Positions 1-34,984 of a stretch of 64,000 nucleotides of DNA are shown here, piece by piece. A program made the position numbers and the translations under genes. Numbering within the stretch: the stretch's first letter is position 1; each line of letters begins with the position of its first letter. This DNA comes from a virus: IMG/VR virus record IMGVR_UViG_3300033145_000668, positions 1 through 64,000 of that record; one strand, 5' to 3'. Below the pieces are notes generated by a model that saw only the letters and a program-made list of their open reading frames with translations, was not told the DNA's origin and made no database searches.

Positions 1-49
1 GTGCTCGACTCTTAATCGAGACATCTGGGTGAGAATCCCAGTGAGTCCA
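1..49 (+). tRNA. tRNA-Lys(CTT), 5'-truncated by window edge
   Basis: Anticodon arm ctcga-CT CTT AA-tcgag; T arm ctggg-TGAGAAT-cccag. Confidence 0.8.
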
Positions 50-57
50 TTTAATAT

Positions 58-129
58 GCCGCCATAGCTCAGTGATAGAGCAACTGCCTTGTAAGCAGTA
101 GGTCGAGGGTTTGAATCCCTCTGGCTGCT
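58..129 (+). tRNA. tRNA-Thr(TGT)
   Basis: Cloverleaf; actgc-CT TGT AA-gcagt; acceptor gccgcca/tggctgc with one mismatch. Confidence 0.9.
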
Positions 130-134
130 TTTAT

Positions 135-205
135 GGAGTATTAGTCTAGTGGTAGGACTCGTGGTTTGGGACCACGGAGCGGGTGTTCGATTCATCCATA
201 CCCCA
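135..205 (+). tRNA. tRNA-Pro(TGG)
   Basis: cgtgg-TT TGG GA-ccacg; T loop TTCGATT; acceptor with A3.C70 mismatch. Confidence 0.88.
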
Positions 206-210
206 TTTAT

Positions 211-291
211 GCCTCCGTCGCATAATGGTTAGTGCACCGAGCTTGAGACTCGGGAGTTTATCTCATCTCCGTTCAATTCGGAGCGGGGGCG
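211..291 (+). tRNA. tRNA-Ser(TGA)
   Basis: ccgag-CT TGA GA-ctcgg; long variable arm; G73; 5' GCC. Confidence 0.9.
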
Positions 292-294
292 TAT

Positions 295-375
295 GCCACG
301 TTGCCGGAGCGGTTAACGGAGCAGTTTGCTAAACTGTGCCCTTGTGGTTCAGAGGTTCGAATCCTCTACGTGGCG
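295..375 (+). tRNA. tRNA-Ser(GCT)
   Basis: gcagt-TT GCT AA-actgt; long variable arm; perfect acceptor gccacgt/acgtggc; G73. Confidence 0.92.
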
Positions 376-377
376 TT

Positions 378-456
378 AGATGTAGATTATGATGTTGACA
401 TAATATCGGAACTTAGTTATGTTAAAATGTCGTTCCTGAAAAAATAATCTATGTCT
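378..456 (+). ncRNA. Candidate structured ncRNA (three-way junction with complementary loops) inside tRNA array
   Basis: 13-bp closing stem 378-390/444-456, hairpins 391-407 and 408-436, loop GACAT complementary to ATGTC. Confidence 0.5.
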
Positions 457-463
457 TTATAAT

Positions 464-535
464 GTTGGTTGTAGCATATTGGTAATGCGTGCGGTTGTGA
501 TCTGTGAGAAGAGAGTTCGATTCTCTCCTTCCAAT
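464..535 (+). tRNA. tRNA-His(GTG), weakly paired, possibly degenerate
   Basis: tgcgg-TT GTG AT-ctgtg; canonical D and T arms; encoded G-1; two U.U mismatches in acceptor. Confidence 0.72.
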
Positions 536-565
536 CTTTAAATAAAATATTTAGGAAATATTTAA

Positions 566-641
566 TGGGATGTAGCTCAGTCTGTTCAGAGCGCTGGTCT
601 GATACGCCAGAGGTTCGCAGGTTAGAATCCTGTCATCCCAA
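566..641 (+). tRNA. tRNA-Ile(GAT)
   Basis: ctggt-CT GAT AC-gccag; acceptor tgggatg/catccca. Confidence 0.88.
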
Positions 642-646
642 TTTAA

Positions 647-719
647 TGGCTTGTAGCATAGTGTTTAATGCACCCGTCTTATGAGCGGGAGACCGTGGGT
701 TAAAATCCTACCAAGCCAA
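647..719 (+). tRNA. tRNA-Ile(TAT)
   Basis: cccgt-CT TAT GA-gcggg; acceptor tggcttg/caagcca. Confidence 0.85.
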
Positions 720-728
720 TATTAAAAA

Positions 729-1244
729 ATGAAATGTAAAAAATGTAAAAAAGAACACGATGGAACTTTTGGTTCCGGAAAATTTTGTAGTCGTAGTTGT
801 GCTAATAGTAGAACTAGAAATAAATCATATAAAAATAAAATGAGTAAAATAATGAAAAATGTAAAACCTAAAAAAAGAATTAAAATAAAATTTAGTAAAG
901 AAAGAATAGAAATCCATAAAAAAGGAATACAAAAATATCATAAAAATAAAGAAGAACTAATTAAGAAAACATTATATTTTAATGATTGGCCATCTGAATC
1001 AATGAAAATTAGAGAATTCAAAAAAGAAAAAGGAAATAAATGTGAAGTATGTGGATTTGAATATTCAAATAAAGATGGAAAAGGTCCATTTGAAGTTCAT
1101 CATAAAGACGGAAATAATAAAAATAATAACTATGAAAATCTACAAATGATATGTTTAATTTGTCATTGGAAAACTGATAATTATAGATTTAGAGGAAGAA
1201 GCAATAAAAAATTAAAGACCTGTGGTGCACTGGATAGCACATGA
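729..1244 (+). CDS. HNH homing endonuclease with N-terminal zinc finger
   Basis: CEVCG...EVHHKDGNNKNN..ENL..ICLICH HNH motif; N-terminal CKKC..FCSRSC. Confidence 0.88.
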   Translation: MKCKKCKKEHDGTFGSGKFCSRSCANSRTRNKSYKNKMSKIMKNVKPKKRIKIKFSKERIEIHKKGIQKYHKNKEELIKKTLYFNDWPSESMKIREFKKEKGNKCEVCGFEYSNKDGKGPFEVHHKDGNNKNNNYENLQMICLICHWKTDNYRFRGRSNKKLKTCGALDST

Positions 1245-1287
1245 CTCTTCTAAAGTCGAGAAGTGGGTTCGATTCCCTCCAGGTCTG
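1216..1287 (+). tRNA. tRNA-Arg(TCT)
   Basis: tgact-CT TCT AA-agtcg; acceptor agacctg/caggtct; A20. Confidence 0.88.
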
Positions 1288-1292
1288 TTCAT

Positions 1293-1367
1293 GGCTCCGT
1301 AGTTCAGTCTGCGCAGAACACTTGCCTTTTAAGCAAGATGTCGGGGGTTCGAATCCCTCCGGGGTCA
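1293..1367 (+). tRNA. tRNA-Lys(TTT)
   Basis: cttgc-CT TTT AA-gcaag; T loop TTCGAAT. Confidence 0.9.
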
Positions 1368-1370
1368 TAA

Positions 1371-1445
1371 GGTTCCATAGCTCAGCCTGTTCAGAGCATC
1401 CGGTTTTTACCCGGAGTGTCGGGGATTAGAATTCCTCTGGGACCA
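1371..1445 (+). tRNA. tRNA-Lys(TTT), second copy with variant loop
   Basis: tccgg-TT TTT AC-ccgga; acceptor ggttcca/tgggacc. Confidence 0.82.
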
Positions 1446-1448
1446 TAA

Positions 1449-1520
1449 GGAACATCAGTATAGTGGGCATTACATCCGACTGAAGCTCGGAAGAGGGAAG
1501 TCCGATTCTTCCATGTTCCA
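1449..1520 (+). tRNA. tRNA-Phe(GAA)
   Basis: tccga-CT GAA GC-tcgga; acceptor ggaacat/atgttcc. Confidence 0.87.
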
Positions 1521-1523
1521 TAA

Positions 1524-1595
1524 GTGCCTATAGTTCACTGAATAGAACGCAAGGTTTCGACCCTTGAGAATTTGGTTTAATTCCAAATAGGCATG
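1524..1595 (+). tRNA. tRNA-Arg(TCG)
   Basis: caagg-TT TCG AC-ccttg; acceptor gtgccta/taggcat. Confidence 0.87.
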
Positions 1596-1598
1596 TAG

Positions 1599-1672
1599 AG
1601 GGCTATAGTACAGCAGGACAAGTACGCTGGGTTTTGGACCCAGAAACCTCCGTTCGAATCGGAGTAGCCCTA
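1599..1672 (+). tRNA. tRNA-Gln(TTG)
   Basis: ctggg-TT TTG GA-cccag; acceptor agggcta/tagccct (A1:U72). Confidence 0.92.
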
Positions 1673-1675
1673 TAC

Positions 1676-1748
1676 GAGCGATTGGTGTAATGGTTTAGCA
1701 CGACAGTTTTACATGCTGTAGACATGAGTTTGATTCTCTTATCGCTCA
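1676..1748 (+). tRNA. tRNA-Val(TAC)
   Basis: acagt-TT TAC AT-gctgt; acceptor gagcgat/atcgctc. Confidence 0.87.
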
Positions 1749-1752
1749 TTCA

Positions 1753-1825
1753 GGGAATATAGTATAATGGCCTAGTCCGTTCGGTTCCAACCCGAGAAGT
1801 CTCAGTTCGATTCTGGGTATTCCCA
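1753..1825 (+). tRNA. tRNA-Trp(CCA)
   Basis: ttcgg-TT CCA AC-ccgag; acceptor gggaata/tattccc. Confidence 0.87.
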
Positions 1826-1865
1826 TCAATAATTTTAAATAAAATTAATAATTATATATACTTTA

Positions 1866-1898
1866 TTATATATAATTTACTATAAATATGTTTATAAA
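1866..1898 (+). promoter_or_regulatory. Archaeal-type TATA promoter (TAAATATG-TTTATAAA class)
   Basis: TTTATAAA at 1891-1898; 30/33 nt identical to 7795-7827. Confidence 0.6.
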
Positions 1899-1926
1899 GA
1901 ATATAATTATTAATTATATGTAAAGA

Positions 1927-1984
1927 AAGATACACCCAGCAATCAAAACAATTTATTACTGTAAATAATAACCAAACGTATCTT
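1927..1984 (+). ncRNA. Leader RNA element with tRNA-Tyr-like anticodon stem-loop
   Basis: Closing stem aagatac/gtatctt; internal ttatta-CTGTAAA-taataa hairpin; 20 nt before the TROVE-like ATG. Confidence 0.55.
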
Positions 1985-2004
1985 GACTTACACTATAAAA
2001 GAAA

Positions 2005-3537
2005 ATGACATGGACAAACGATTTAATAAAAAAAGAAGTAATTGTTTCAAGCGAAAAGAAATCCCAAGACCAAGGAACTTCTAATAATTCTTTATGGAAT
2101 GCAATGAAAGACGAAACTAATTATACTAAAACTGAAAATAATGCTGACACATTAAAATCAACTCAATCTAAAGTATTAGATTTATTCTCAATGGGTGGAG
2201 CGTTAAGAAAAAGAGATAATGAAGAAGTTAAAAAAATGATTTCATTAGCGCTTGCTGAAGATTTTAATTTAGGTTTAAAATGCTTATTCTATTTAAGAGA
2301 CGTTAGAGGTGGACAAGGAGAAAGAAAAACATTTAGAACTGGATTAAAAGTTTTATCAGATTATTACCCAACAGAAACAAAAAAGATACTCGAATTAATT
2401 CCAGAATATGGAAGATGGGATGATATATTATCTTTAGAAGGAATAGATATTAGAGATTTTTTATTACATAAATTATTAGATGATTGTTCAACAAGCAAGC
2501 CGTCGTTATTAGCAAAATGGTTACCGTCTGAAAATACTTCATCTAAAAAAACTAAGATGGTAGCAAGAGCATTAAGAAAATATTTAGGATTTAGTTCTAT
2601 AAAATATAGAAAAATGTTAAGTTCTGTTAGACATAATTTAAAATTAGTAGAATCTAAAATGTCTCAAAATAAATGGGGATTTATAAATTATTCTTCAGTT
2701 CCATCTAAAGCTAATTTAAAATATAAAGATGCTTTTATAAAACATGATACGGAAAGATATGCTAAATTTTTAGAAGCAGTAGATAAAGGAGAAGCAAAAA
2801 TAAATACTTCTACTATATTTCCTTATGAAATTGTTAAAAAAGCAAGAGAAGACAATAATCAAACATTAGAAGTATTATGGAAAAACTTACCTAATTATGT
2901 AAGAGAAGATGATAAAGGTATTGTAGTTGCAGATGTTTCTGGAAGTATGTATGGAATGCCAATGGATGTTTCAGTAAGTTTAGCAATGTATTTTGCAGAA
3001 AGAAATGTCGGACCTTTTGCAAATAAGTTTATAACTTTTTCAGGAAACCCATCTTTACAAGATATTACTGGAATTACTTTAAAGCAAAAAATTAACAATT
3101 TAGAAAGAGCCCACTGGCAAATGAATACTGATTTACAAGCAGTATTCGATTTAGTATTAAATACTGCTAAACAAAATAATGTACCACAAGAAGATTTACC
3201 AAAAACTATTTATATAGTTTCAGATATGGAATTTGATGAAGCTAATGGTGGCGCTGGGGGATTTAGAACTGTAGCTAATCCAAGATTAACTAATTTTGAA
3301 GCTATAAAACAAAAATATGCAAGTGCTGGATATGAAATGCCTACATTAGTATTTTGGAATGTAGATTCGAGAAATAATAATGTTCCGGTAAAACAAAATG
3401 AAGACGGTGTAATTTTAGTTAGCGGATGTTCTCCTTCTATTTTTAAAATGGTAATGGAAAAAACAACACCATATAAATTTATGTTGAACGCGTTGAACGG
3501 TGAACGATATAAGTTGGTAGATGAGAAGTTAAAATGA
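2005..3537 (+). CDS. DUF2828 / TROVE (Ro60-like) protein with C-terminal vWA domain
   Basis: TEN..., RDVRGGQGER, YGRWDD, AKWLPSE motifs; MIDAS DVSGSM; SDMEFD; VFWNV. Confidence 0.88.
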   Translation: MTWTNDLIKKEVIVSSEKKSQDQGTSNNSLWNAMKDETNYTKTENNADTLKSTQSKVLDLFSMGGALRKRDNEEVKKMISLALAEDFNLGLKCLFYLRDVRGGQGERKTFRTGLKVLSDYYPTETKKILELIPEYGRWDDILSLEGIDIRDFLLHKLLDDCSTSKPSLLAKWLPSENTSSKKTKMVARALRKYLGFSSIKYRKMLSSVRHNLKLVESKMSQNKWGFINYSSVPSKANLKYKDAFIKHDTERYAKFLEAVDKGEAKINTSTIFPYEIVKKAREDNNQTLEVLWKNLPNYVREDDKGIVVADVSGSMYGMPMDVSVSLAMYFAERNVGPFANKFITFSGNPSLQDITGITLKQKINNLERAHWQMNTDLQAVFDLVLNTAKQNNVPQEDLPKTIYIVSDMEFDEANGGAGGFRTVANPRLTNFEAIKQKYASAGYEMPTLVFWNVDSRNNNVPVKQNEDGVILVSGCSPSIFKMVMEKTTPYKFMLNALNGERYKLVDEKLK

Positions 3538-3686
3538 ATAATAAATGTAAATTAAAAGATTTAGTTGATGATTTAGTAGAAGTGTTTGATGTAACTGAAA
3601 TAACAATGGATAATTCTGGCATAGGAATGGTAATTGTAGATGCTTTAAGAGAAAAAGGAGTTAAAGTAACTGAAAAAAGAAAATGA
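3534..3686 (+). CDS. 50-aa ORF resembling a terminase nuclease-domain fragment
   Basis: ATGA overlap with upstream stop; MNNKCKLKDLVDDLVEVFDVTEITMDNSGIGMVIVDALREKGVKVTEKRK. Confidence 0.55.
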   Translation: MNNKCKLKDLVDDLVEVFDVTEITMDNSGIGMVIVDALREKGVKVTEKRK

Positions 3687-3742
3687 ATAACGAGGTATAT
3701 AATTTAAGGACACTATAAAGGATATAGTATTAAAAAAAATTA

Positions 3743-4021
3743 ATGATTAAAAAGAAAAAAGAAATTACTTCTGAACAAATAATTAAAAGGGTTCAAAAAC
3801 TTTTTGATGAATATAATATTTCCGGTGTATTGAAAATACCTAATGTAGATATAATGTCTAATTTTAGAAGTCATGCAGATAAATTAGAAATTATAGAATT
3901 TGTAGATATAGAACAAAAAATATCTGTCGAATTACTTAAAAAAGAAATTGAAACTTCTGTAGTTGATGAATTTAATTCTAAAAATAAAATACAGCGTTAT
4001 ATACCGGAGTATGTGAAATGA
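3743..4021 (+). CDS. hypothetical protein
   Basis: 92-aa ORF in co-oriented gene run. Confidence 0.65.
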   Translation: MIKKKKEITSEQIIKRVQKLFDEYNISGVLKIPNVDIMSNFRSHADKLEIIEFVDIEQKISVELLKKEIETSVVDEFNSKNKIQRYIPEYVK

Positions 4022-4151
4022 AAAAGAAAAATAAATTAGAAAGTTATGGAATCAGTCTGGCCGAATATTTAACAATACATTATCCGGAAATACTAGATGA
4101 ATATTATAAAAAATATAATATTAATGAACTACACATAACAGAATAATACAT

Positions 4152-4337
4152 ATGGGAAGAAAAAAAGTTGACAACAAAAACAAGAATGTTTCTATCAGTT
4201 TAACTATACATCAAGCAGAGTATGTTAAAAAAAATAAAGATTTTGATTTATCTAAATTTGTACAATTGTGTTTACAAAATCATATAGATTTAGATGATGA
4301 TATATTACACGCAAAAGTAGAAGGAGGTAAAAAATAA
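4152..4337 (+). CDS. ribbon-helix-helix-like DNA-binding protein
   Basis: MGRKK...VSISLT...LSKFVQ strand-helix-helix pattern. Confidence 0.55.
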   Translation: MGRKKVDNKNKNVSISLTIHQAEYVKKNKDFDLSKFVQLCLQNHIDLDDDILHAKVEGGKK

Positions 4338-4619
4338 ATGGCAAAACGACAATTAAATGAAGATGAAAAAAGAATTATTTCTAAAAGCTTATTAAGTATA
4401 AATAAAGAACTAGAATATAAAGAACGAGTTGAATTAGCAAGAAAAAAATTCAATCTAGAGGTTGCTGATTTAGAAGTAGAAAAACAAAAGAATGCAATAA
4501 AAGCTGAAATAAAACTTTTAGAAAGAGAAATTGCTGAATATAAAAGAGCAATTGAAGAATTAGAACAACAAATTAAATACGGTGTTGAAATTAAAACAAT
4601 TTCAAAAGATACTCAGTAG
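4338..4619 (+). CDS. coiled-coil hypothetical protein
   Basis: AGGAGGT SD upstream; E/K/L heptads. Confidence 0.7.
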   Translation: MAKRQLNEDEKRIISKSLLSINKELEYKERVELARKKFNLEVADLEVEKQKNAIKAEIKLLEREIAEYKRAIEELEQQIKYGVEIKTISKDTQ

Positions 4620-4698
4620 AAAAATATGAAGAAAACATTAAAATGCACATTCTTACGAATAGAAGATAAATATAATTTGAAAGGAGGTAAAAAATAAA

Positions 4699-5295
4699 AT
4701 GGGAGAATATAATTTTTTTCGTCCTCTTTCTAATGAAGAACAAGTAGATACGGTTGCAATAGGTTCTACAGATATATTATCTACTTTTTTAAAAAAGTTA
4801 GCTGATGTACAAACAGAATTTAATAAAAAACTAAGACCGTTTGATGCATACGGTGCAAAGATTGATTTTGAGCACAAAGTTAGAAATAAGATAAATGATA
4901 TATCAACAAATTTAGATAGAGAAGGTATTAGTAGAACAATTGATTTTGGCGACTTAGAGGCATACGGAAATACAGATAGATTCGAATTCATAGAAAGAGC
5001 TGAACAACAAGTTACAAAATTAGTAGCAGGAACTATAAATAATGTTTCTATTGGATATAGATATAAGTTTAAATGTATAGCAAAAGGAAACAGAATATCT
5101 ATTTATGTTGAAAATAGTAAAATAGATGAATTCGAAAAATGGTTAAACGAAGAATTTTTGAAGGATGATAAGCTTGTTAAAAAAGCACCTACACCGGATG
5201 AACCAATGTCGTTAGATGACGTGGAACAAAAAGGTTCAGCAAAGTCTGAAGTGGTAAAGGAAACTAAAAAAACAAATACAAAAAAAGTTAAGTAA
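4699..5295 (+). CDS. hypothetical protein
   Basis: AGGAGGT SD upstream; 198 aa. Confidence 0.75.
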   Translation: MGEYNFFRPLSNEEQVDTVAIGSTDILSTFLKKLADVQTEFNKKLRPFDAYGAKIDFEHKVRNKINDISTNLDREGISRTIDFGDLEAYGNTDRFEFIERAEQQVTKLVAGTINNVSIGYRYKFKCIAKGNRISIYVENSKIDEFEKWLNEEFLKDDKLVKKAPTPDEPMSLDDVEQKGSAKSEVVKETKKTNTKKVK

Positions 5296-5343
5296 GTAAT
5301 TAATTTAACTTAGTATTATTTTATTTTATTATTATATTATAAA

Positions 5344-5679
5344 ATGGGGACAGAAAAAATAGAAGAAACAATAGAAGACGAAATTATATTAAAGAAAGGA
5401 GACGATGAAGTAGTTCTAACTGAAACAAGAATACGAAATCTAACATCTAAGTTTATAGAGTTGTGTGCAGGCCAAGCAGACGACTATCAAGATTTTGGTA
5501 TGAATACTAAAGTCGTAGAACTATTAATTGATATTAAGAAAGCTTACTATCCGGCCACACAGCGAAATATAAATCTTAATGTTAAAGACTTTGATGAAAA
5601 ATTACAAAAATGGAAAGCTGCTAGAGATGAGATGAAGCTAGCGCAAAGCGAAGGATTAACGGTAATGGAGGTAAAATAA
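5344..5679 (+). CDS. hypothetical protein, possible terminase small subunit
   Basis: Helical 111-aa protein upstream of TerL; function inferred from position only. Confidence 0.5.
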   Translation: MGTEKIEETIEDEIILKKGDDEVVLTETRIRNLTSKFIELCAGQADDYQDFGMNTKVVELLIDIKKAYYPATQRNINLNVKDFDEKLQKWKAARDEMKLAQSEGLTVMEVK

Positions 5680-5685
5680 CATAAA

Positions 5686-6357
5686 ATGACGAGCGGTGTA
5701 TATGAAAGAACTGAAGAGAACAAAACAAACATTAGTAAAGGAAGAAAAAAAATATTTAAACGCGGTTATATAAATCCGTTTAAAAATAAATCACATTCTG
5801 CCGAGTCAAAAAACAGAATGAGTAAAAGTAGAAAAAAACTATTTGAGTGTGGATATATACATCCAATGAAAGGTAAACATATTTCTGAATCTCATAAAAA
5901 AAGTGTAAGTAAAAAACAAAAAGAAAACCCTTCTAGATATTGGAAAAACAAAAAAAGAAAACCATTTTCTGATGAATGGAAAAAAAATATCAGTAAAATC
6001 AGAAAAGGAAAAACTTATATGGAAATATATGGAGAAAAGCGAACAAAAGAAATTAAAGAACTTAAAAGAAATATCAGACTAAAACAAATTAAAGAAAATA
6101 ATAGTAGTTTACAAATAGGTAAACACGAACAACAAATTTTAGATGAACTAGAACTATCTAATAATATAAAAATAATTAGACAATATACGACGTGTGGTTA
6201 TATCGTTGATGGATATATTGACGAATTAAACTTATGTATTGAAGTCGATGAGAATTTTCATAAATATCAACAAGAAAAAGATAAAATCAGAGAAAATAAT
6301 ATTAAAGAAGAGTTAAAATGTAAATTTTTGAGAATAAAAGACACATATGATTTCTAA
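5686..6357 (+). CDS. Homing endonuclease, NUMOD3-like repeats + DUF559/Vsr-like nuclease
   Basis: HSAESKNRMS and GKHISESHKK repeats; VDGY..ELNLCIEVDE..H..D..RE. Confidence 0.8.
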   Translation: MTSGVYERTEENKTNISKGRKKIFKRGYINPFKNKSHSAESKNRMSKSRKKLFECGYIHPMKGKHISESHKKSVSKKQKENPSRYWKNKKRKPFSDEWKKNISKIRKGKTYMEIYGEKRTKEIKELKRNIRLKQIKENNSSLQIGKHEQQILDELELSNNIKIIRQYTTCGYIVDGYIDELNLCIEVDENFHKYQQEKDKIRENNIKEELKCKFLRIKDTYDF

Positions 6358-7144
6358 TAAATTACCGTCAATAACATTAGAACAGTTAAAAAGCGACGGA
6401 GAACTTTTAAATGATTTTGTATCATTTTTTTTCGGATTTGATTTATACAAATATCAAACTAGATTCTTGCTTGCATGTTTAAACCACACAAGAATAGCTG
6501 GGCTTTGGTGTAGACAGTCGGGTAAGAGTCAAACGGTTGCAATTTTTTGTGTATTGGTTGCTATGTTTGATAAAAAGGATATTATTATTGCAGCGCCAAC
6601 TGACACACAGGCGAGATTAATATATGCAAAAGTAACGGAACTTATAGAACAAAACACAGATTTAAAAGTTTTAGTAGTTAGTTCAATTCAAGAAGAAACT
6701 AAATTTAAAACTGGAAGCACTGTTAAAATGATTACTGTTGGACCTTTTGGAACAACTAAAAGAGGACACACTTGTGATATTTTAATCGAAGAAGAATCGC
6801 AAGACATAAAAGATGAAATTCATAATAGTGTTTTAATGCCGTTCTTAGCTTCAAAAAAATCAGAAGGAAAGGTTATTAAAATTGGAACGGCAAAAAAGAG
6901 AGGACACTTTTGTGTTAGTTGTTTTGAGGATAAAAACTTTGAGTTGTTTAAAGTTAAATGGGAAGAAGTTGTTGAGGCTGGACAATATTCTATTGATTTT
7001 ATTGAAGAACAGCGACTTACATTAACTGATTTTGAGTTTGATGCTGAGTATTGTTCGAAATTCATTGATGATGTAAATGCATACTTTCCAATTGATTTAA
7101 TTGAATCTTGTATGCTCGAGTACAACTGCATTAGAATATTATAA
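6347..7144 (+). CDS. terL: Terminase large subunit, ATPase half
   Basis: YQ adenine motif, Walker A CRQSGKS, APT..QA, RG, Walker B ILIEEE, coupling motif IGT. Confidence 0.88.
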   Translation: MISNKLPSITLEQLKSDGELLNDFVSFFFGFDLYKYQTRFLLACLNHTRIAGLWCRQSGKSQTVAIFCVLVAMFDKKDIIIAAPTDTQARLIYAKVTELIEQNTDLKVLVVSSIQEETKFKTGSTVKMITVGPFGTTKRGHTCDILIEEESQDIKDEIHNSVLMPFLASKKSEGKVIKIGTAKKRGHFCVSCFEDKNFELFKVKWEEVVEAGQYSIDFIEEQRLTLTDFEFDAEYCSKFIDDVNAYFPIDLIESCMLEYNCIRIL

Positions 7145-7145
7145 A

Positions 7146-7778
7146 ATGAAACACGAAAAAATAATACCAAAAAAAGTACCGAATGGTGAAATCAATCCTA
7201 AAGCTAAATTTATTTTAGGGATAGACCCTGCAAGACAGGGCAAGGATGAAACTGCATTTGTAGTATTAGAACAACCAGCATTCGATGATAATATTTTTGT
7301 AGTTTATGTTGAAGCGATACACACTCCCGATTTAAAACAAGTAATTAGTAAGGCAATATATTTAGATAAGTTTTTCAATTTCAAAAAAATAATTATAGAT
7401 GAAACAGGATTGGGTTCTGGAGTTACTGATATTCTAAAAGGTAGATTAAAAGGAAGAGTAGATGGTATTTGGTATACACAAAAAAAGAAAGCGTCAATGT
7501 TTCAGAACCTGCGAATTCTAATGGCCAGACCGAATGCTAAATTATATTTTCCAGACCATGAAAAAAATAAAGACCCGGTGATTAAAAAAATGTATTTTCA
7601 GTTTTTAACTATAATGGCTGAGTATGATGATAACACCGGAACACGAACTCCAAAAATATATCATGAGAAGGGAAAACATGACGATATTATAAATGCGCTG
7701 TGCCTGGCTGCTACAGCATTTAACGTTTCCGGTAACAGAAACAAAACACCGAGAATTGGGTGTTTTAATTATACATAA
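7146..7778 (+). CDS. terL: Terminase large subunit, RNase H-like nuclease half
   Basis: GIDPA..GKDETA, IDETGLG, HDDIINAL; ATG at 7146 (ORF track start 7101). Confidence 0.88.
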   Translation: MKHEKIIPKKVPNGEINPKAKFILGIDPARQGKDETAFVVLEQPAFDDNIFVVYVEAIHTPDLKQVISKAIYLDKFFNFKKIIIDETGLGSGVTDILKGRLKGRVDGIWYTQKKKASMFQNLRILMARPNAKLYFPDHEKNKDPVIKKMYFQFLTIMAEYDDNTGTRTPKIYHEKGKHDDIINALCLAATAFNVSGNRNKTPRIGCFNYT

Positions 7779-8148: not shown

Positions 8149-8976
8149 ATGATAAAAAATAAATGTAAAAGATGTGGTAAAATTTTTGAAGTTTATCCAT
8201 CCCAACGAAAAAAATATTGTTCAAGAGAATGTTTTTCTAAAAAATTTCAAGTTAAATGTATTATTTGTGGTAAAATAAGAGAATTTAGTTTTATTAAATC
8301 TAAGAAAAGAAAATGTTGTTCTAGAAAATGTGCAAATAAATTAAATTCTATAAGAATGATGGGTGAAAACCATCCAAGATATAGAGAAAGAGTTAAATTA
8401 AAATGTATTATATGCGGTGATAACTTTGAAGTTATACAATCTCAAAAAAATCAAAAATGTTGTTCGAGAAAATGTTCAAGTAAATTACAAGGTGAAAATA
8501 GAAAAAAAGAAAAAATTAAACTTGAATGTGTTATTTGCGGCAAGACATTTAAAGTTAATCTGGCAGTTTCTAAGTATAAAAAATATTGTTCTAGAAAATG
8601 TGTAGAAATATTTCAATCTATCAATAGGAAAGGAAAATCATATGAAGAAATGTATGGAAAAGAAAAAACTAAAGAAATAAAAATGAAACAAAGGATAAGT
8701 GCAATAAATTATATTAATAATCACAGTAAAGGAATACAGCCACATTTAGGAAGAAACGAAAAGGACTTTCTTGACGAAGTAGAACTATCCAATAATATAA
8801 AATTAGTCAGACAATATGAGGTATTAGGTTACTTCGTTGATGGTTATTGTGAAGAATTGAATATAGTAGTAGAAATAGATGAAAGACCTAAAACCCATGA
8901 AAGAGATATCGAACGAGAAAATAATATTATAAAAGAATTAAATTGTAAATTTCTAAGAATAAGAGACGACTTCTAA
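8149..8976 (+). CDS. Homing endonuclease, four zinc-finger repeats + DUF559/Vsr-like nuclease
   Basis: 4x C..CG..F....CSR.C; FVDGYCEELNIVVEIDE; paralog of 5686-6357. Confidence 0.8.
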   Translation: MIKNKCKRCGKIFEVYPSQRKKYCSRECFSKKFQVKCIICGKIREFSFIKSKKRKCCSRKCANKLNSIRMMGENHPRYRERVKLKCIICGDNFEVIQSQKNQKCCSRKCSSKLQGENRKKEKIKLECVICGKTFKVNLAVSKYKKYCSRKCVEIFQSINRKGKSYEEMYGKEKTKEIKMKQRISAINYINNHSKGIQPHLGRNEKDFLDEVELSNNIKLVRQYEVLGYFVDGYCEELNIVVEIDERPKTHERDIERENNIIKELNCKFLRIRDDF

Positions 8977-32391: not shown

Positions 32392-32421
32392 CTATATAGA
32401 TTTAAAATTAAACTTTATAAA
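32392..32421 (+). promoter_or_regulatory. Bipartite promoter CTATATAG-N14-TTTATAAA
   Basis: Exact 14-nt spacing; 22 nt before ATG 32444. Confidence 0.7.
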
Positions 32422-32443: not shown

Positions 32444-33475
32444 ATGGTAAACGAAGGAGATTTAAATAAAATAAACGGTAATATTTGGTATGCCGGAGAT
32501 GTAACTGCAGTAGTTAATGCTTTTGGTTTTATGTTAAAAGATTACTCACAAGTAATTTTTAATGCAGCTTATGAAACTTGGGACTCCAGACTAAATGGAG
32601 GAACACCAGATTTTATTAATGTAGATTATGATATTTTTATTGCTGATACAGCAGATACTAAAACTAATATTTCTTATAATTCAACTAAGGATTATTATTA
32701 TACAAATTATCCCGACGCAAGTTTTACAACTTTAGATGAATTTAATGATTCCAGTGTTGATACAGGAATATGGGATGTTGCTGTTACTGGAACCGGTAGT
32801 ATTGTAGAAGGTGTAGCAAATTTAACCATAAGAGTTTCTGGAGGAGCAGGAACAGCAACTTTAACAACCGACGATGATATTTTTGGAAATTATGCGAATA
32901 ATATTAGAATACAACTTGCAAACACAGTTGACGGTCCAGCTACAGGAAGTCAAAATATTGAATTATATGATGGTACTGATACTGTTATTTTATTATCTAA
33001 ATCTCAATTTACTGATAATGATTTAATTGATATATCTAAAATTGATGCAAATAATGTTAAAATTAGAATAAATGGTGGTGCTTGGACTAATAAAGATATT
33101 AGTTCGTTATCAGGAACAATTAAATTAAGATTTAATTTATCTGATTCTAGTACTTTTGATTGGAATATTAATTGGATAAGATATTCTTCTGATACAATCA
33201 CATCAACTTTAATTACAAATGTTGCTACAACTGCAAGTGCAACAATAACAAATGCCATGTTGTGTATTAATAGCGAAGATAATACAGATGCTGGAATAAC
33301 TTACTATCTTTCTGCTGATAATGGTGCAAATTATGAAGAAGTTACGCCAAATAAAATTCATACATTTACTGATACAGGAACTGAATTAAAATTAAAAGTG
33401 GAAGAAACTGGAATTGAAATTTATGCAAAAGATTTTACGGTTTATGAATATCTAGTTAAATATAATTTATATTAA
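32444..33475 (+). CDS. putative virion/receptor-binding protein
   Basis: DEFNDSS.D...W lectin-like start; YLSADNG.NYE..T...H.F...G..LKLK. Confidence 0.6.
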   Translation: MVNEGDLNKINGNIWYAGDVTAVVNAFGFMLKDYSQVIFNAAYETWDSRLNGGTPDFINVDYDIFIADTADTKTNISYNSTKDYYYTNYPDASFTTLDEFNDSSVDTGIWDVAVTGTGSIVEGVANLTIRVSGGAGTATLTTDDDIFGNYANNIRIQLANTVDGPATGSQNIELYDGTDTVILLSKSQFTDNDLIDISKIDANNVKIRINGGAWTNKDISSLSGTIKLRFNLSDSSTFDWNINWIRYSSDTITSTLITNVATTASATITNAMLCINSEDNTDAGITYYLSADNGANYEEVTPNKIHTFTDTGTELKLKVEETGIEIYAKDFTVYEYLVKYNLY

Positions 33476-34892: not shown

Positions 34893-34984
34893 ATAAACTA
34901 TTAATTTAGTTTATTATTTTTTTTAAATTTTTAAACTTTTTTCTAAATAGAAACATTTATAAACCATAATATTGTATCAGTATT

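What the first reader, a model, noticed from the sequence alone, without database searches (positions are those of the whole stretch)
1927..1984. tRNA-Tyr anticodon mimic in the 5' leader of the Ro60/TROVE-like gene
Seen: ~30 nt after TTTATAAA (1891) and 20 nt before the ATG, a 7-bp stem AAGATAC/GTATCTT encloses ACCCAGCAA and a 6-bp hairpin with the 7-nt loop CTGTAAA. That is the canonical tRNA-Tyr anticodon loop, with no D or T arm. Inference: the leader may sense or decoy anticodon nucleases, so that cleavage or protein binding controls expression of an RNA-repair/chaperone protein, or it may be a Y-RNA-like ligand. The loop also contains U33-G34-U35, the minimal TGT recognition element.
Basis: partly seen in the sequence, partly recalled or inferred. 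Interest (0 to 1): 0.8.

Follow-up and report, generated by a model that had tools for sequence, protein, structure and literature searches.

The report
Ro60-like protein's partner RNA leader
The small folded RNA just ahead of this virus's Ro60-like gene is real: it belongs to a widespread RNA family that I found in neither Rfam nor the papers searched, always lies beside such genes, and often displays a copy of a tRNA anticodon hairpin, here a tyrosine-like one, whose purpose is still untested.

Summary
A 7-bp stem (1927-1933 / 1978-1984) encloses ACC-CAGCAA and a hairpin with loop CTGTAAA, 20 nt before the ATG of a DUF2828 gene. Alone it folds no better than shuffles, but comparison settles it.

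- The same "handle" lies on the gene strand beside DUF2828 genes in 156 of 209 fetched loci. It is a 7-bp covarying stem, 3 nt, unpaired CAGCAA, a variable cargo, the 3' arm, then G.
- A covariance model built without this lineage finds the window copy at 40 bits, the only significant hit in the 95-kb genome.
- The protein model matches Ro60 structures end to end.

The element is therefore most likely the partner (Y-RNA-like) RNA of a Ro60-like protein, made here as the 5' leader of that protein's own mRNA. Cargos elsewhere are hairpins, YrlA-like tRNA elbows or whole tRNAs.

Among 151 non-redundant short cargos, 16% carry a CU-NNN-AA heptaloop against 0.2-0.3% in controls, so anticodon-arm display is a real trait of the family. 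The Tyr identity is not conserved in the closest relatives, and the hairpin here is weak. Decoy or regulatory roles are untested.

This scan has found this family before on other DNA. I found it in neither Rfam nor the papers searched.

The parts
1891..1898 (+). TTTATAAA box, a probable archaeal-type TATA box of the promoter that drives the handle RNA and the DUF2828 gene
   Evidence: It is invariant and sits 27-29 nt upstream of the handle's 5' arm in the window, L050, L051 and L052, although the DNA between differs in L052. The same box lies 29-30 nt before the ATG of genes at 32444 and 34985, a leaderless-type layout. Promoter function and a transcription start near 1920 are inferred.
1919..1923 (+). 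5' strand of the outer extension helix (UGUAA)
   Evidence: It pairs with 1988-1992. Among four relatives, two of the five pairs change on both sides and stay paired, and a third does so in one relative.
1924..1926 (+). 5' side of the 3x3 internal loop (AGA), opposite GAC at 1985-1987
   Evidence: The pattern is NGA opposite GA(C/A) in all four relatives. Tandem G:A pairing is my inference.
1927..1933 (+). 5' arm of the handle stem (AAGAUAC)
   Evidence: It forms 7 bp with 1978-1984. In 41 family members six of the seven pairs covary and the third pair is always G:C, though the scan that picked these members required G at that position; 89 cells change on both sides against 19.6 in shuffles.
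1934..1942 (+). 3-nt spacer (ACC) plus the unpaired conserved CAGCAA motif
   Evidence: CAGCAA, 3 nt after the 5' arm, was the anchor of the scans, and the sixth base is A in 99 of 103 representatives. The Rfam Class I RNA consensus carries CAGCAAU at the same place.
1943..1952 (+). A-rich linker between the handle and the cargo
   Evidence: Direct reading. Its length and sequence vary among relatives.
1953..1971 (+). Cargo hairpin: 6-bp A:U stem (UUAUUA/UAAUAA) with the 7-nt loop CUGUAAA, which has the frame of a tRNA-Tyr(GUA) anticodon loop
   Evidence: Relatives keep a hairpin here with different complementary stems. Anticodon-frame loops are enriched in the family. On its own it is weak, at +0.2 kcal/mol.
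1972..1977 (+). 3' linker (CCAAAC)
   Evidence: An A/C-rich linker precedes the 3' arm across the family.
1978..1985 (+). 3' arm of the handle stem (GUAUCUU) followed by G
   Evidence: The G after the arm was required by my scan, and it is also present in all four closest relatives.
1988..1992 (+). 3' strand of the outer extension helix (UUACA)
2005..3537 (+). Gene for the Ro60-like protein (DUF2828 + DUF7788/vWA, 510 aa), the presumed protein partner
   Evidence: Pfam gives DUF7788 at 1.4e-55 and DUF2828 at 9.6e-36. PHROG 850 is named 'RNA-binding protein'. The AlphaFold model has pLDDT 86, and the eleven best Foldseek PDB matches are all Ro60. D310, S312 and S314 are invariant, which I read as the MIDAS DxSxS motif.
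1..1825 (+). Context: tRNA gene array (15 whole tRNAs plus one cut at the contig start) with an HNH gene inside it, ending 101 nt before the handle's 5' arm (93 nt before the extension helix)
   Evidence: No tRNA-Tyr is found in the 95 kb held.

Best explanation
Window 1919-1992 encodes the single partner RNA of the virus's Ro60-like protein (DUF2828). It is a small Y-RNA-like RNA built from a conserved 'handle' and a variable 'cargo'.

The handle is a 7-bp closing stem, a 3-nt spacer and unpaired CAGCAA. Here the stem is lengthened by a 3x3 internal loop and 5 further pairs. I infer that the ring-shaped protein binds the handle, as Ro60 binds the conserved stem of Y RNAs.

The cargo is a hairpin whose 7-nt loop CUGUAAA has the frame of a tRNA-Tyr anticodon loop. 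I infer that it is displayed to some factor that reads anticodon arms. Candidates are a host tRNA-cutting defence nuclease, a modification enzyme or a synthetase.

In this lineage the RNA is made as the first ~72 nt of the DUF2828 mRNA itself, from a conserved TATA-like box about 30 nt upstream. RNA and protein are therefore produced together. The RNA may then be cut off, or may also let the protein throttle its own translation.

Shown: the conservation, the covariation, the linkage to the gene and its strand, the Ro60-like fold, and the enrichment of anticodon-like loops in the family. Inferred: binding, the transcription start, processing, and the target of the cargo.
For: 1. Linkage. A pattern scan (7-bp arm, 2-4 nt spacer, CAGCA[AG], complementary arm, G) gave 192 hits on the gene strand against 12 on the other strand in 129 loci around DUF2828 homologues. 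Shuffles gave 11-19 hits for both strands together. In 80 loci from bacterial and archaeal assemblies it gave 204 against 16. In all, 156 of 209 loci carry at least one copy.
2. Covariation. Six of the seven stem pairs covary in 41 members, with a covariation score of 0.87 against 0.22 in shuffles and at most 0.17 when the partners are slid. Non-Watson-Crick pairs are G:U type 36 times and A:C type 9 times, which fits RNA of the gene strand.
3. Membership. A model built without the window or its close relatives finds 1923-1988 at 40.0 bits, E 1e-5. The next hit in the whole 95-kb genome scores 17.9 bits.
4. Specificity. Whole-genome searches of five bacterial genomes gave three significant hits, each just upstream of the DUF2828 gene.
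5. Protein. The model has pLDDT 86 and pTM 0.85. The eleven best PDB matches are Ro60 of frog, human, Thermus phage phiLo and Deinococcus, aligned over 520-570 columns (1yvr: E 3.8e-8, TM 0.57).
6. Cargo in other members. It can be a YrlA-like tRNA elbow: Rfam YrlA scores 43.8 bits on L002 (cargo part of the model only) and 44.5 bits on L054. In 14 of 235 clusters it is a whole tRNA.
7. Anticodon-like cargo. Of 151 non-redundant short cargos, 31% have a hairpin with a 7-nt loop carrying U33 and R37, against 4.7-4.9% in controls. CU-NNN-AA loops make up 15.9% against 0.2-0.3%. CUGUAAA itself recurs in three independent clusters.
8. Leader position. TTTATAAA is invariant 27-29 nt upstream of the handle in four relatives. 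The handle ends 20 nt before the ATG, and no Shine-Dalgarno motif lies between, although many internal genes of the window have GGAGG.
Against: - No experiment or transcript data exist. No sequencing run holding this DNA could be listed.
- Binding of the protein to the handle rests on genomic association and on analogy with Ro60.
- The cargo hairpin here is all A:U and marginal (+0.2 kcal/mol), and a competing fold is slightly better. The virus's real tRNAs have G:C-rich anticodon stems.
- The closest relatives do not keep the Tyr loop, and two of the three do not keep U33.
- Half of the 235 family clusters (118) carry none of the tRNA-like features I looked for in the cargo.
- The spacer here is ACC, whereas its third base is A in 78 of 103 representatives.
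- The transcription start is inferred from a TATA-like box whose count in the window is not above chance (18 against 16 expected).
- An archaeal host is not established.
Confidence: 0.6

Rival explanations
1. The element is purely a cis-acting operator. It works only as the 5' untranslated leader, where the DUF2828 protein (or another factor) binds to repress or activate translation of its own mRNA, and no free RNA has a function.
For: - The virus has a single copy, ending 20 nt before the ATG, with no Shine-Dalgarno motif between and a conserved promoter-like box directly upstream.
- In 57 of 104 loci with an upstream copy, the nearest copy ends 10-38 nt before the start codon.
Against: - Across the family, 92 copies lie downstream of the gene, and many lie hundreds of nt upstream in tandem arrays mixed with tRNA genes.
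- Cargos that are tRNA elbows or whole tRNAs make no sense for a simple operator.
- Tight spacing is also the rule between neighbouring copies, so nearness to the ATG may only reflect dense packing.
- The two roles do not exclude each other.
Confidence: 0.2
2. The element is a specific decoy or sensor for an anticodon nuclease or for tRNA-guanine transglycosylase acting on tRNA-Tyr, and its cleavage or binding controls expression.
For: - The loop CUGUAAA fits the Tyr anticodon loop and contains U33-G34-U35.
- Anticodon-frame loops are strongly enriched in the family.
- The commonest mimic anticodons are UUU, GCA, GUA, CAU and GUU. From my own knowledge, these include tRNAs cut by known anticodon nucleases.
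- The element lies next to a viral tRNA array.
Against: - The Tyr loop is not conserved in the nearest relatives.
- G34-U35 anticodons are 9 of 48 mimic loops, so no preference for TGT substrates stands out.
- No nuclease, ligase or TGT gene was found next to it.
- The hairpin is weak.
- Mimic anticodons showed no relation to tRNA genes in the same loci: 0 of 29 matched, against 1.4 expected.
Confidence: 0.12
3. The element is a degenerate or armless tRNA, or a tRNA-Tyr pseudogene left at the end of the tRNA array.
For: - It has a 7-bp closing stem like an acceptor stem.
- About 19 nt lie where the D arm would be.
- The hairpin has a 7-nt anticodon-frame loop.
- The element lies 101 nt after tRNA-Trp.
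Against: - ARAGORN and Rfam tRNA give no hit, and there is no D or T arm.
- What is conserved is CAGCAA and the handle, not tRNA features.
- L051 and L052 carry the same element although no tRNA gene was found anywhere in those loci.
Confidence: 0.03
4. The stems are chance inverted repeats in AT-rich intergenic DNA, or a DNA-level signal, with no RNA function.
For: - The single-sequence fold is not significant (z -1.5).
- The spacer is full of A/T inverted repeats.
Against: - There is compensatory change and conservation over relatives whose proteins are 63-74% identical.
- The strand bias is 396 to 28.
- G:U pairs exceed A:C pairs 36 to 9.
- The leave-out model gives E 1e-5.
Confidence: 0.02

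Closest known systems
Ro60 (Rsr/TROVE2) with Y RNAs, especially bacterial and phage YrlA/YrlB (Rfam RF02553; Chen et al. 2014, PMC4201824) and Thermus phage phiLo Ro60 with Yrl1/Yrl2 (PMC12135203)
   Same: - The protein is a ring-shaped HEAT-repeat plus vWA protein. The fold match was tested here.
- The small RNAs are encoded within a few kb on the same strand, often in several copies.
- The RNAs are modular: a conserved stem for the protein and a second module that mimics tRNA.
- Some family members carry a cargo that Rfam's YrlA model recognises.
   Different: - Pfam assigns the protein to DUF2828/DUF7788, not TROVE, and a sequence profile finds no PDB Ro60.
- The conserved RNA motif is a covarying stem plus CAGCAA. 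YrlA has GNCGAAN0-1G and animal Y RNAs have GGUCCGA (PMC4201824).
- No Rfam family reaches its threshold on the window element.
- Cargo made of a bare anticodon-arm mimic is not part of the YrlA description.
- Here the RNA is the leader of the protein's own mRNA.
Class I RNAs of dictyostelid social amoebae (Rfam RF01414; Kjellin et al. 2021, PMC7919456)
   Same: - The architecture is the same: 42-65 nt, a short stem joining the 5' and 3' ends whose structure but not sequence is kept, a conserved unpaired motif right after the 5' arm, and the rest variable (PMC7919456).
- The Rfam consensus reads CAGCAAU at model positions 11-17, and this aligns with window 1937-1943.
- The conserved 3' end CTG resembles the C-U-U-G at the end of the handle.
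   Different: - The Rfam model scores only 16 bits against a gathering score of 41.5, and it did not reach E <= 1 on nine further loci.
- Class I RNAs are eukaryotic, have their own promoters, and were reported as unique to Dictyostelia.
- Their known direct binder is the RRM protein Rnp1A, not a Ro60-like protein.
- A protein of unknown function, DDB_G0281243, was also pulled down with a Class I RNA (bioRxiv 10.1101/2020.04.05.026054). I could not check whether it is a DUF2828 protein.
tRNA anticodon stem-loops
   Same: - The loop has 7 nt with C32, U33, A37 and A38 around a triplet, closed by a stem of 4-6 bp.
- The virus's own 15 tRNAs show the same frame.
   Different: - There is no acceptor end, D arm or T arm.
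- The stem here is all A:U.
- The hairpin is embedded in a handle with CAGCAA.

Membership tests
CAGCAA-handle RNAs that accompany DUF2828 genes (not in Rfam; defined here and in earlier notes of this scan) | A 7-bp closing stem joins the two ends, with G:C as the third pair and the other pairs covarying | tested here: met
   AAGAUAC pairs with GUAUCUU and the third pair is G:C. Family covariation is shown.
CAGCAA-handle RNAs that accompany DUF2828 genes (not in Rfam; defined here and in earlier notes of this scan) | Unpaired CAGCAA lies 3 nt after the 5' arm, and a G follows the 3' arm | tested here: met
   ACC-CAGCAA is at 1934-1942 and G at 1985. The third spacer base is C here, whereas it is A in 78 of 103 representatives.
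CAGCAA-handle RNAs that accompany DUF2828 genes (not in Rfam; defined here and in earlier notes of this scan) | Recognised by a covariance model built from other members only | tested here: met
   Model R2 was built without the window, L050, L051 and L052. It scores 40.0 bits, E 1e-5, and this is the only significant hit in the 95-kb genome.
CAGCAA-handle RNAs that accompany DUF2828 genes (not in Rfam; defined here and in earlier notes of this scan) | Lies on the same strand as a DUF2828 gene and within a few kb of it | tested here: met
   It ends 20 nt upstream of the gene at 2005-3537, on the + strand.
Y RNA / YrlA (Rfam RF00019, RF02553) | Reaches the Rfam gathering score, or carries the Ro60-binding motif GNCGAAN0-1G (YrlA) or GGUCCGA (animal Y RNA) | tested here: not met
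   No Y RNA or YrlA match at E <= 10 in 1700-2200 or 1900-2010. Neither motif is in the sequence.
Y RNA / YrlA (Rfam RF00019, RF02553) | Bound by a Ro60 protein | not testable with these tools
   Only the genomic linkage and the Ro60-like fold of the neighbouring protein are shown.
Y RNA / YrlA (Rfam RF00019, RF02553) | tRNA-like module with T arm, closed acceptor stem and D arm (YrlA) | tested here: not met
   The window cargo is a single hairpin. Other members of the handle family do have this module.
Dictyostelid Class I RNA (Rfam RF01414) | Reaches the Rfam gathering score of 41.5 bits | tested here: not met
   It scores 16.0 bits, E 0.86, as a local match to model positions 11-48 only.
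Dictyostelid Class I RNA (Rfam RF01414) | A short terminal stem plus a conserved motif ending in CAGCAA next to the 5' arm, with the rest variable and a length of about 60 nt | tested here: met
   The architecture is as described in PMC7919456. The consensus CAGCAAU aligns to 1937-1943. The element is 58 nt, or 74 nt with the extension.
Ro60 / TROVE protein family (for the neighbouring gene) | HEAT-repeat ring plus a C-terminal vWA domain with a MIDAS motif | tested here: met
   The eleven best Foldseek matches are Ro60 structures over the full length. D310, S312 and S314 are invariant in 33 homologues, which I read as the MIDAS DxSxS motif. There is a weak Pfam VWA_2 hit.
Ro60 / TROVE protein family (for the neighbouring gene) | Match to the Pfam TROVE domain, or sequence-level similarity to solved Ro60 structures | tested here: not met
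   Pfam gives DUF2828 and DUF7788 only. A profile search of PDB sequences finds no Ro60.
tRNA | Cloverleaf recognised by ARAGORN or Rfam RF00005 | tested here: not met
   No call at 1826-2004.

The most novel reading that the evidence does not exclude
A second, undescribed branch of the Ro60/Y-RNA particle may exist in tailed viruses of bacteria and probably archaea. In it, a DUF2828 ring protein holds small 'handle' RNAs that display isolated pieces of tRNA. In this virus the piece is a Tyr-like anticodon arm, made as the leader of the protein's own mRNA. The displayed anticodon arms would act as baits or decoys for host tRNA-cutting defence enzymes. The same handle would be the ancestor or cousin of the unexplained Class I RNAs of social amoebae, which would give those RNAs a candidate protein partner.
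Probability: 0.25. Interest if true: 0.85.

Novelty: new variant of a known kind. Interest (0 to 1): 0.7.

Why it matters
Ro60 and its Y RNAs are a conserved RNA-surveillance particle, and how they choose targets is still debated. The work here points to a large sister family: DUF2828 proteins with CAGCAA-handle RNAs, seen in 156 of 209 loci sampled.

Three points make it useful.
- The RNAs carry interchangeable pieces of tRNA (anticodon arms, elbows, whole tRNAs). This suggests a programmable way to bring a ring protein together with tRNA-reading factors, possibly in the conflict over tRNA-cutting host defences.
- This window gives the simplest version: one RNA, one protein and one promoter. 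That makes a clean system for binding and reporter tests.
- The shared handle offers a testable lead on the function of Dictyostelium Class I RNAs, which have been known since 2004 without a mechanism.

This scan has met the family many times before. This window adds the single-copy 5'-leader layout, the probable archaeal-type promoter, and an independent statistical test of the anticodon-like cargo.

Tried and rejected
The upstream DNA of the closest protein homologues that are known only from that collection (for example P0003, 73%) could not be fetched. I used the search for related loci on metagenome, viral and genome contigs instead.
- The look-up of sequencing runs listed no run, so there are no transcript data. 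No RNA holder was listed.
- A megablast of window 1-6000 against the phage collection gave only short tRNA matches.
- Rfam found no family on the element at gathering score or at E <= 10, apart from a 16-bit local match to Class I RNA. RF01414 did not reach E <= 1 on nine other loci.
- TATAAATA, the T4 late-promoter word, is enriched in the window (40 against 22), but by my count of the listed sites it is not biased to the coding strand in the minus-strand half. I dropped it as a promoter.
- The sigma-70 and terminator scans gave nothing above shuffles near the element.
- The resemblance of CUUGAC in the 3' arm to the Y RNA stem was rejected. Only YUUG is conserved in the family, and the pairing register differs.
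- Mimic anticodon against tRNA genes in the same locus: 0 of 29 coincide, 1.4 expected. This is inconclusive because the loci reach only about 3 kb on each side.
- I tried to learn whether D. discoideum DDB_G0281243 is a DUF2828 protein. It is named in only one paper of the library, the supplements say nothing, and a protein search from a giant-virus homologue returned no named eukaryotic protein.
- No further handle copy was found in the rest of the window or genome.
- The neighbouring small ORFs have no Pfam or PHROG match that links them to RNA repair.
Full report
**What is in the sequence.** The window is the first 64 kb of a 95-kb IMG/VR virus record, about 68% complete. It is 26-34% G+C. 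It is a tailed virus with an HK97-type major head protein and a large terminase.

Positions 1-1825 hold a tRNA array of 15 whole tRNAs plus one cut by the contig end, with an HNH gene inside it. A 179-nt spacer follows. Then comes a 510-aa gene at 2005-3537 with Pfam DUF2828 and DUF7788, a vWA-like domain.

- TTTATAAA at 1891-1898;
- the stem AAGATAC / GTATCTT at 1927-1933 / 1978-1984;
- ACC-CAGCAA at 1934-1942;
- the hairpin TTATTA-CTGTAAA-TAATAA at 1953-1971.

After a 3x3 internal loop (AGA opposite GAC), five more pairs form between 1919-1923 and 1988-1992.

**Is it more than chance?** Taken alone, no. The 58-nt fold has z = -1.5. The inner all-A:U hairpin is worth +0.2 kcal/mol, and a competing tetraloop hairpin -1.4.

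Comparison changes the picture. I therefore fetched loci through the search for related loci.

The three closest loci with upstream DNA are L050, L051 and L052 (74, 68 and 63% protein identity). All carry the same element just before the start codon: GAAAGAYAC-A-NN-CAGCAA, a hairpin, then (C)GTRTCTTGA.
- L052 has the compensatory change GACAC/GTGTC.
- The inner stems differ in sequence but stay complementary (TTATTA/TAATAA, TTACT/AGTAA, TTTGAA/TTCAAA, TTTGA/TCAAA).
- The outer extension covaries.

**A large family.** I scanned 129 loci around DUF2828 homologues. The pattern was a 7-nt arm with G third, a 2-4 nt spacer, CAGCA[AG], 10-140 nt, a complementary arm with at most one G:U or mismatch, then G. 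It gave 192 hits on the gene strand and 12 on the other. Shuffled loci gave 11-19 hits for both strands together.

In 80 further loci from bacterial and archaeal assemblies it gave 204 against 16. These included Clostridia, Synergistaceae, Treponema, a cyanobacterial chromosome and two Promethearchaeota MAG contigs. In all, 156 of 209 loci have at least one copy.

Copies often form tandem arrays of 2-7, before and after the gene and between tRNA genes. In total 253 lie upstream and 92 downstream.

The arms differ widely (AAGATAC, TAGACGC, ACGACAC, GAGATTC, TGGACGC, AGGAAGG and others).
- In 41 aligned members six of the seven pairs covary, and 89 cells change on both sides against 19.6 in shuffles.
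- Non-canonical pairs are G:U type 36 times and A:C type 9 times, as expected for RNA of the gene strand.
- These members were chosen for complementarity, so the percentage paired is by construction. The strand bias, the shuffles and the covariance models are the independent checks.

The model checks were as follows.
- A model built from members other than the window and its three relatives finds window 1923-1988 at 40.0 bits (E 1e-5). The next hit in the whole genome scores 17.9 bits.
- In five whole bacterial genomes, the three hits at E <= 0.01 each lie just upstream of the DUF2828 gene. Only 150 candidates per genome were scored there.

**The protein.** An AlphaFold model from 33 homologues has pLDDT 86 and pTM 0.85. 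Its eleven best PDB matches are all Ro60, aligned over 520-570 columns: frog 1yvr (E 3.8e-8, TM 0.57), the Ro60 complexes with misfolded pre-5S rRNA (9nep, 9nfa, 9nf8), Thermus phage phiLo (9l5y, 9kop) and Deinococcus Rsr.

D310, S312 and S314 are invariant, which I read as the MIDAS DxSxS motif of the vWA domain. At the sequence level nothing ties it to Ro60: Pfam gives no TROVE hit, and a profile search of PDB sequences finds no Ro60. PHROG 850 calls the family 'RNA-binding protein'. So 'Ro60-like' holds by fold, not by sequence family.

**What the RNA resembles.** Ro60 proteins work with Y RNAs encoded next to them. Bacterial and phage YrlA RNAs join a Ro60-binding stem (motif GNCGAAN0-1G) to a tRNA-like domain (PMC4201824; phiLo Yrl1/2, PMC12135203). 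The handle RNAs have the same logic but a different conserved motif.

In some members the cargo is a YrlA-type module of T arm, closed acceptor stem and D arm.
- Rfam YrlA scores 43.8 bits on L002, covering only the cargo part of the model.
- It scores 44.5 bits on L054 and 28 bits on L009.
- All are below the gathering score of 69.

A rough sorting of 235 clusters at 80% identity gave these cargo classes:
- whole tRNA: 14;
- T loop plus D loop: 9;
- T loop only: 28;
- anticodon-frame hairpin (YU-NNN-RA): 37;
- other 7-nt loop with U33 and R37: 29;
- none of these: 118.

No Rfam family covers the window element. The only weak match is Dictyostelium Class I RNA, at 16 bits. Its consensus has CAGCAAU at the same place. 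Its published description is a short terminal stem, a conserved motif next to the 5' arm, a variable remainder and about 60 nt (PMC7919456), which fits the handle RNAs. Earlier notes of this scan gave me this lead. I confirmed the motif and the architecture, but not membership, because the model scores too low.

**The anticodon question.** I tested this on 151 non-redundant cargos of at most 62 nt. Controls were 300 rounds each of shuffled cargos and of random genomic segments from the same loci.

| Feature | Cargos | Controls |
|---|---|---|
| Hairpin of at least 4 bp with a 7-nt loop | 58% | 28-30% |
| Loop with U at position 2 and purine at position 6 (U33, R37) | 31% | 4.7-4.9% |
| Loop CU-NNN-AA | 15.9% (24 of 151) | 0.2-0.3% |

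In the 88 loops, U is at position 33 in 64. C is the commonest base at position 32, and A at positions 37 and 38.

The triplets are diverse: UUU 5, GCA 4, GUA 4, CAU 3, GUU 3, GAA 3, UCU 3, and many singles. CUGUAAA occurs in three independent clusters, and CUGUAAA or UUGUAAA can be read in L140, L147, L156, L183 and L204. The virus's own 15 tRNAs show the same loop frame. Anticodon-arm display is therefore a real, recurrent kind of cargo.

Four cautions apply to this window.
- The three closest relatives have loops ACAAUCUA, AUAUUGA and ACUGUAA, so neither Tyr nor even U33 is kept.
- Of the relatives with the same handle sequence found in viral contigs, L213 carries CUGUUAA on a 6-bp A:U stem, while L212 and L215 do not fit the frame.
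- The stem here is weak compared with the virus's real tRNAs.
- G34-U35 anticodons are 9 of 48, so no link to queuosine or TGT stands out.

**How it is made.** TTTATAAA is invariant 27-29 nt upstream of the 5' arm in all four relatives. In L051 and L052 no tRNA gene was found in the locus. L052 has an upstream ORF followed by GC-rich hairpins.

In the window the same box lies 29-30 nt before the ATG of the genes at 32444 and 34985, while many internal genes have GGAGG ribosome sites. I read this as an archaeal-type TATA box with the start of transcription near 1920, at the foot of the extended stem. This is inference. The box is not enriched overall (18 against 16 expected), and the host is unknown.

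If this is right, the handle RNA is the first ~72 nt of the DUF2828 mRNA, followed by 12 nt without a Shine-Dalgarno motif and then AUG. The genome held has only this one copy.

**Mechanism.**
- Shown: a conserved, covarying RNA structure on the gene strand, tightly linked to a Ro60-fold protein gene, with cargo types that copy parts of tRNA.
- Inferred: the protein binds the handle, the cargo is presented to a factor that reads anticodon arms, and the RNA is released from or acts within the mRNA leader.

Because the handle ends 20 nt before the AUG, a bound ring protein could also limit its own translation. I keep this as a rival that does not exclude the main reading. The nuclease-decoy idea is attractive, given the neighbouring tRNA array and the anticodons that known nucleases target (my own knowledge). 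It has no direct support here: there are no repair or nuclease genes nearby, and I found no relation between mimic anticodons and local tRNA genes.

**Novelty.** I found the family in neither Rfam 15 nor the searchable literature. 'DUF2828' occurs in five unrelated papers. Searches on Ro60, Y RNA, phage and anticodon found only canonical TROVE systems. This scan has found the same handle and DUF2828 pairing, and anticodon-arm cargo, in many other genomes. My tests were made independently on this window's relatives and agree with those notes. I rate it a new variant of a known kind (a Ro60/Y-RNA-type particle), with high interest for the system and moderate confidence in the specific role of the Tyr-like loop.

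Noticed in passing
window 377-464 (+): A tRNA-sized structured element lies between tRNA-Ser(GCU) and tRNA-His. It has a 13-bp closing stem and two inner hairpins, with MFE -19.9 kcal/mol, z = -3.7 and 0 of 200 shuffles folding as well. It is not a tRNA and has no CAGCAA handle. It may be another small RNA of the array.
   Followed up: partly
window 32414-32421 and 34956-34963 (+), also 1891-1898: TTTATAAA lies 29-30 nt before the ATG of the genes at 32444 and 34985, a leaderless-type layout. Many internal genes instead have GGAGG ribosome sites. This pattern is typical of archaeal transcription units and hints at an archaeal host.
   Followed up: partly
L119 374-471; L169 2368-2461; L192 2141-2235; L199 745-839 and ten others: Whole tRNA genes (Met, Arg, Ile, Phe, Ser, Leu, His) sit inside the CAGCAA handle, so that the 5' leader and 3' trailer of the tRNA pair as the 7-bp stem. 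This suggests that the Ro60-like protein may also hold tRNA precursors.
   Followed up: partly
L137 2364-2418; L158 2050-2125; L161 2286-2358; L075 2791-2870: Some handle RNAs carry a T-arm hairpin (GGTTCGAWTCC) and no D-loop or whole-tRNA signature. This is a third kind of isolated tRNA part, beside anticodon arms and YrlA-like elbows.
   Followed up: no
L006, L010, L014, L061, L064 and L077 cargos: Cargo loops containing UUUGG or UUGG recur (for example AUUUGGC, AUUUGGA, UUUUGGU). In these G37 nearly always follows G36, as in tRNAs that carry m1G37. Alternatively this is a separate loop motif.
   Followed up: no
window 729-1244 (+), 5686-6357 (+), 8149-8976 (+): There are three homing-endonuclease-like genes: HNH inside the tRNA array, and two with DUF559 and NUMOD3. 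The large terminase is split into an ATPase ORF (6347-7144) and a nuclease ORF (7146-7778).
   Followed up: no
L086 2414-2675: A HEARO RNA (Rfam RF02033, 98.7 bits) lies between the tRNA array and the handle RNAs of another DUF2828 locus.
   Followed up: no
L014 1665-1952; L085 1811-2094; L031 1379-1694: Phage-encoded tmRNA genes lie in the same tRNA and handle-RNA islands as DUF2828 in three loci.
   Followed up: no
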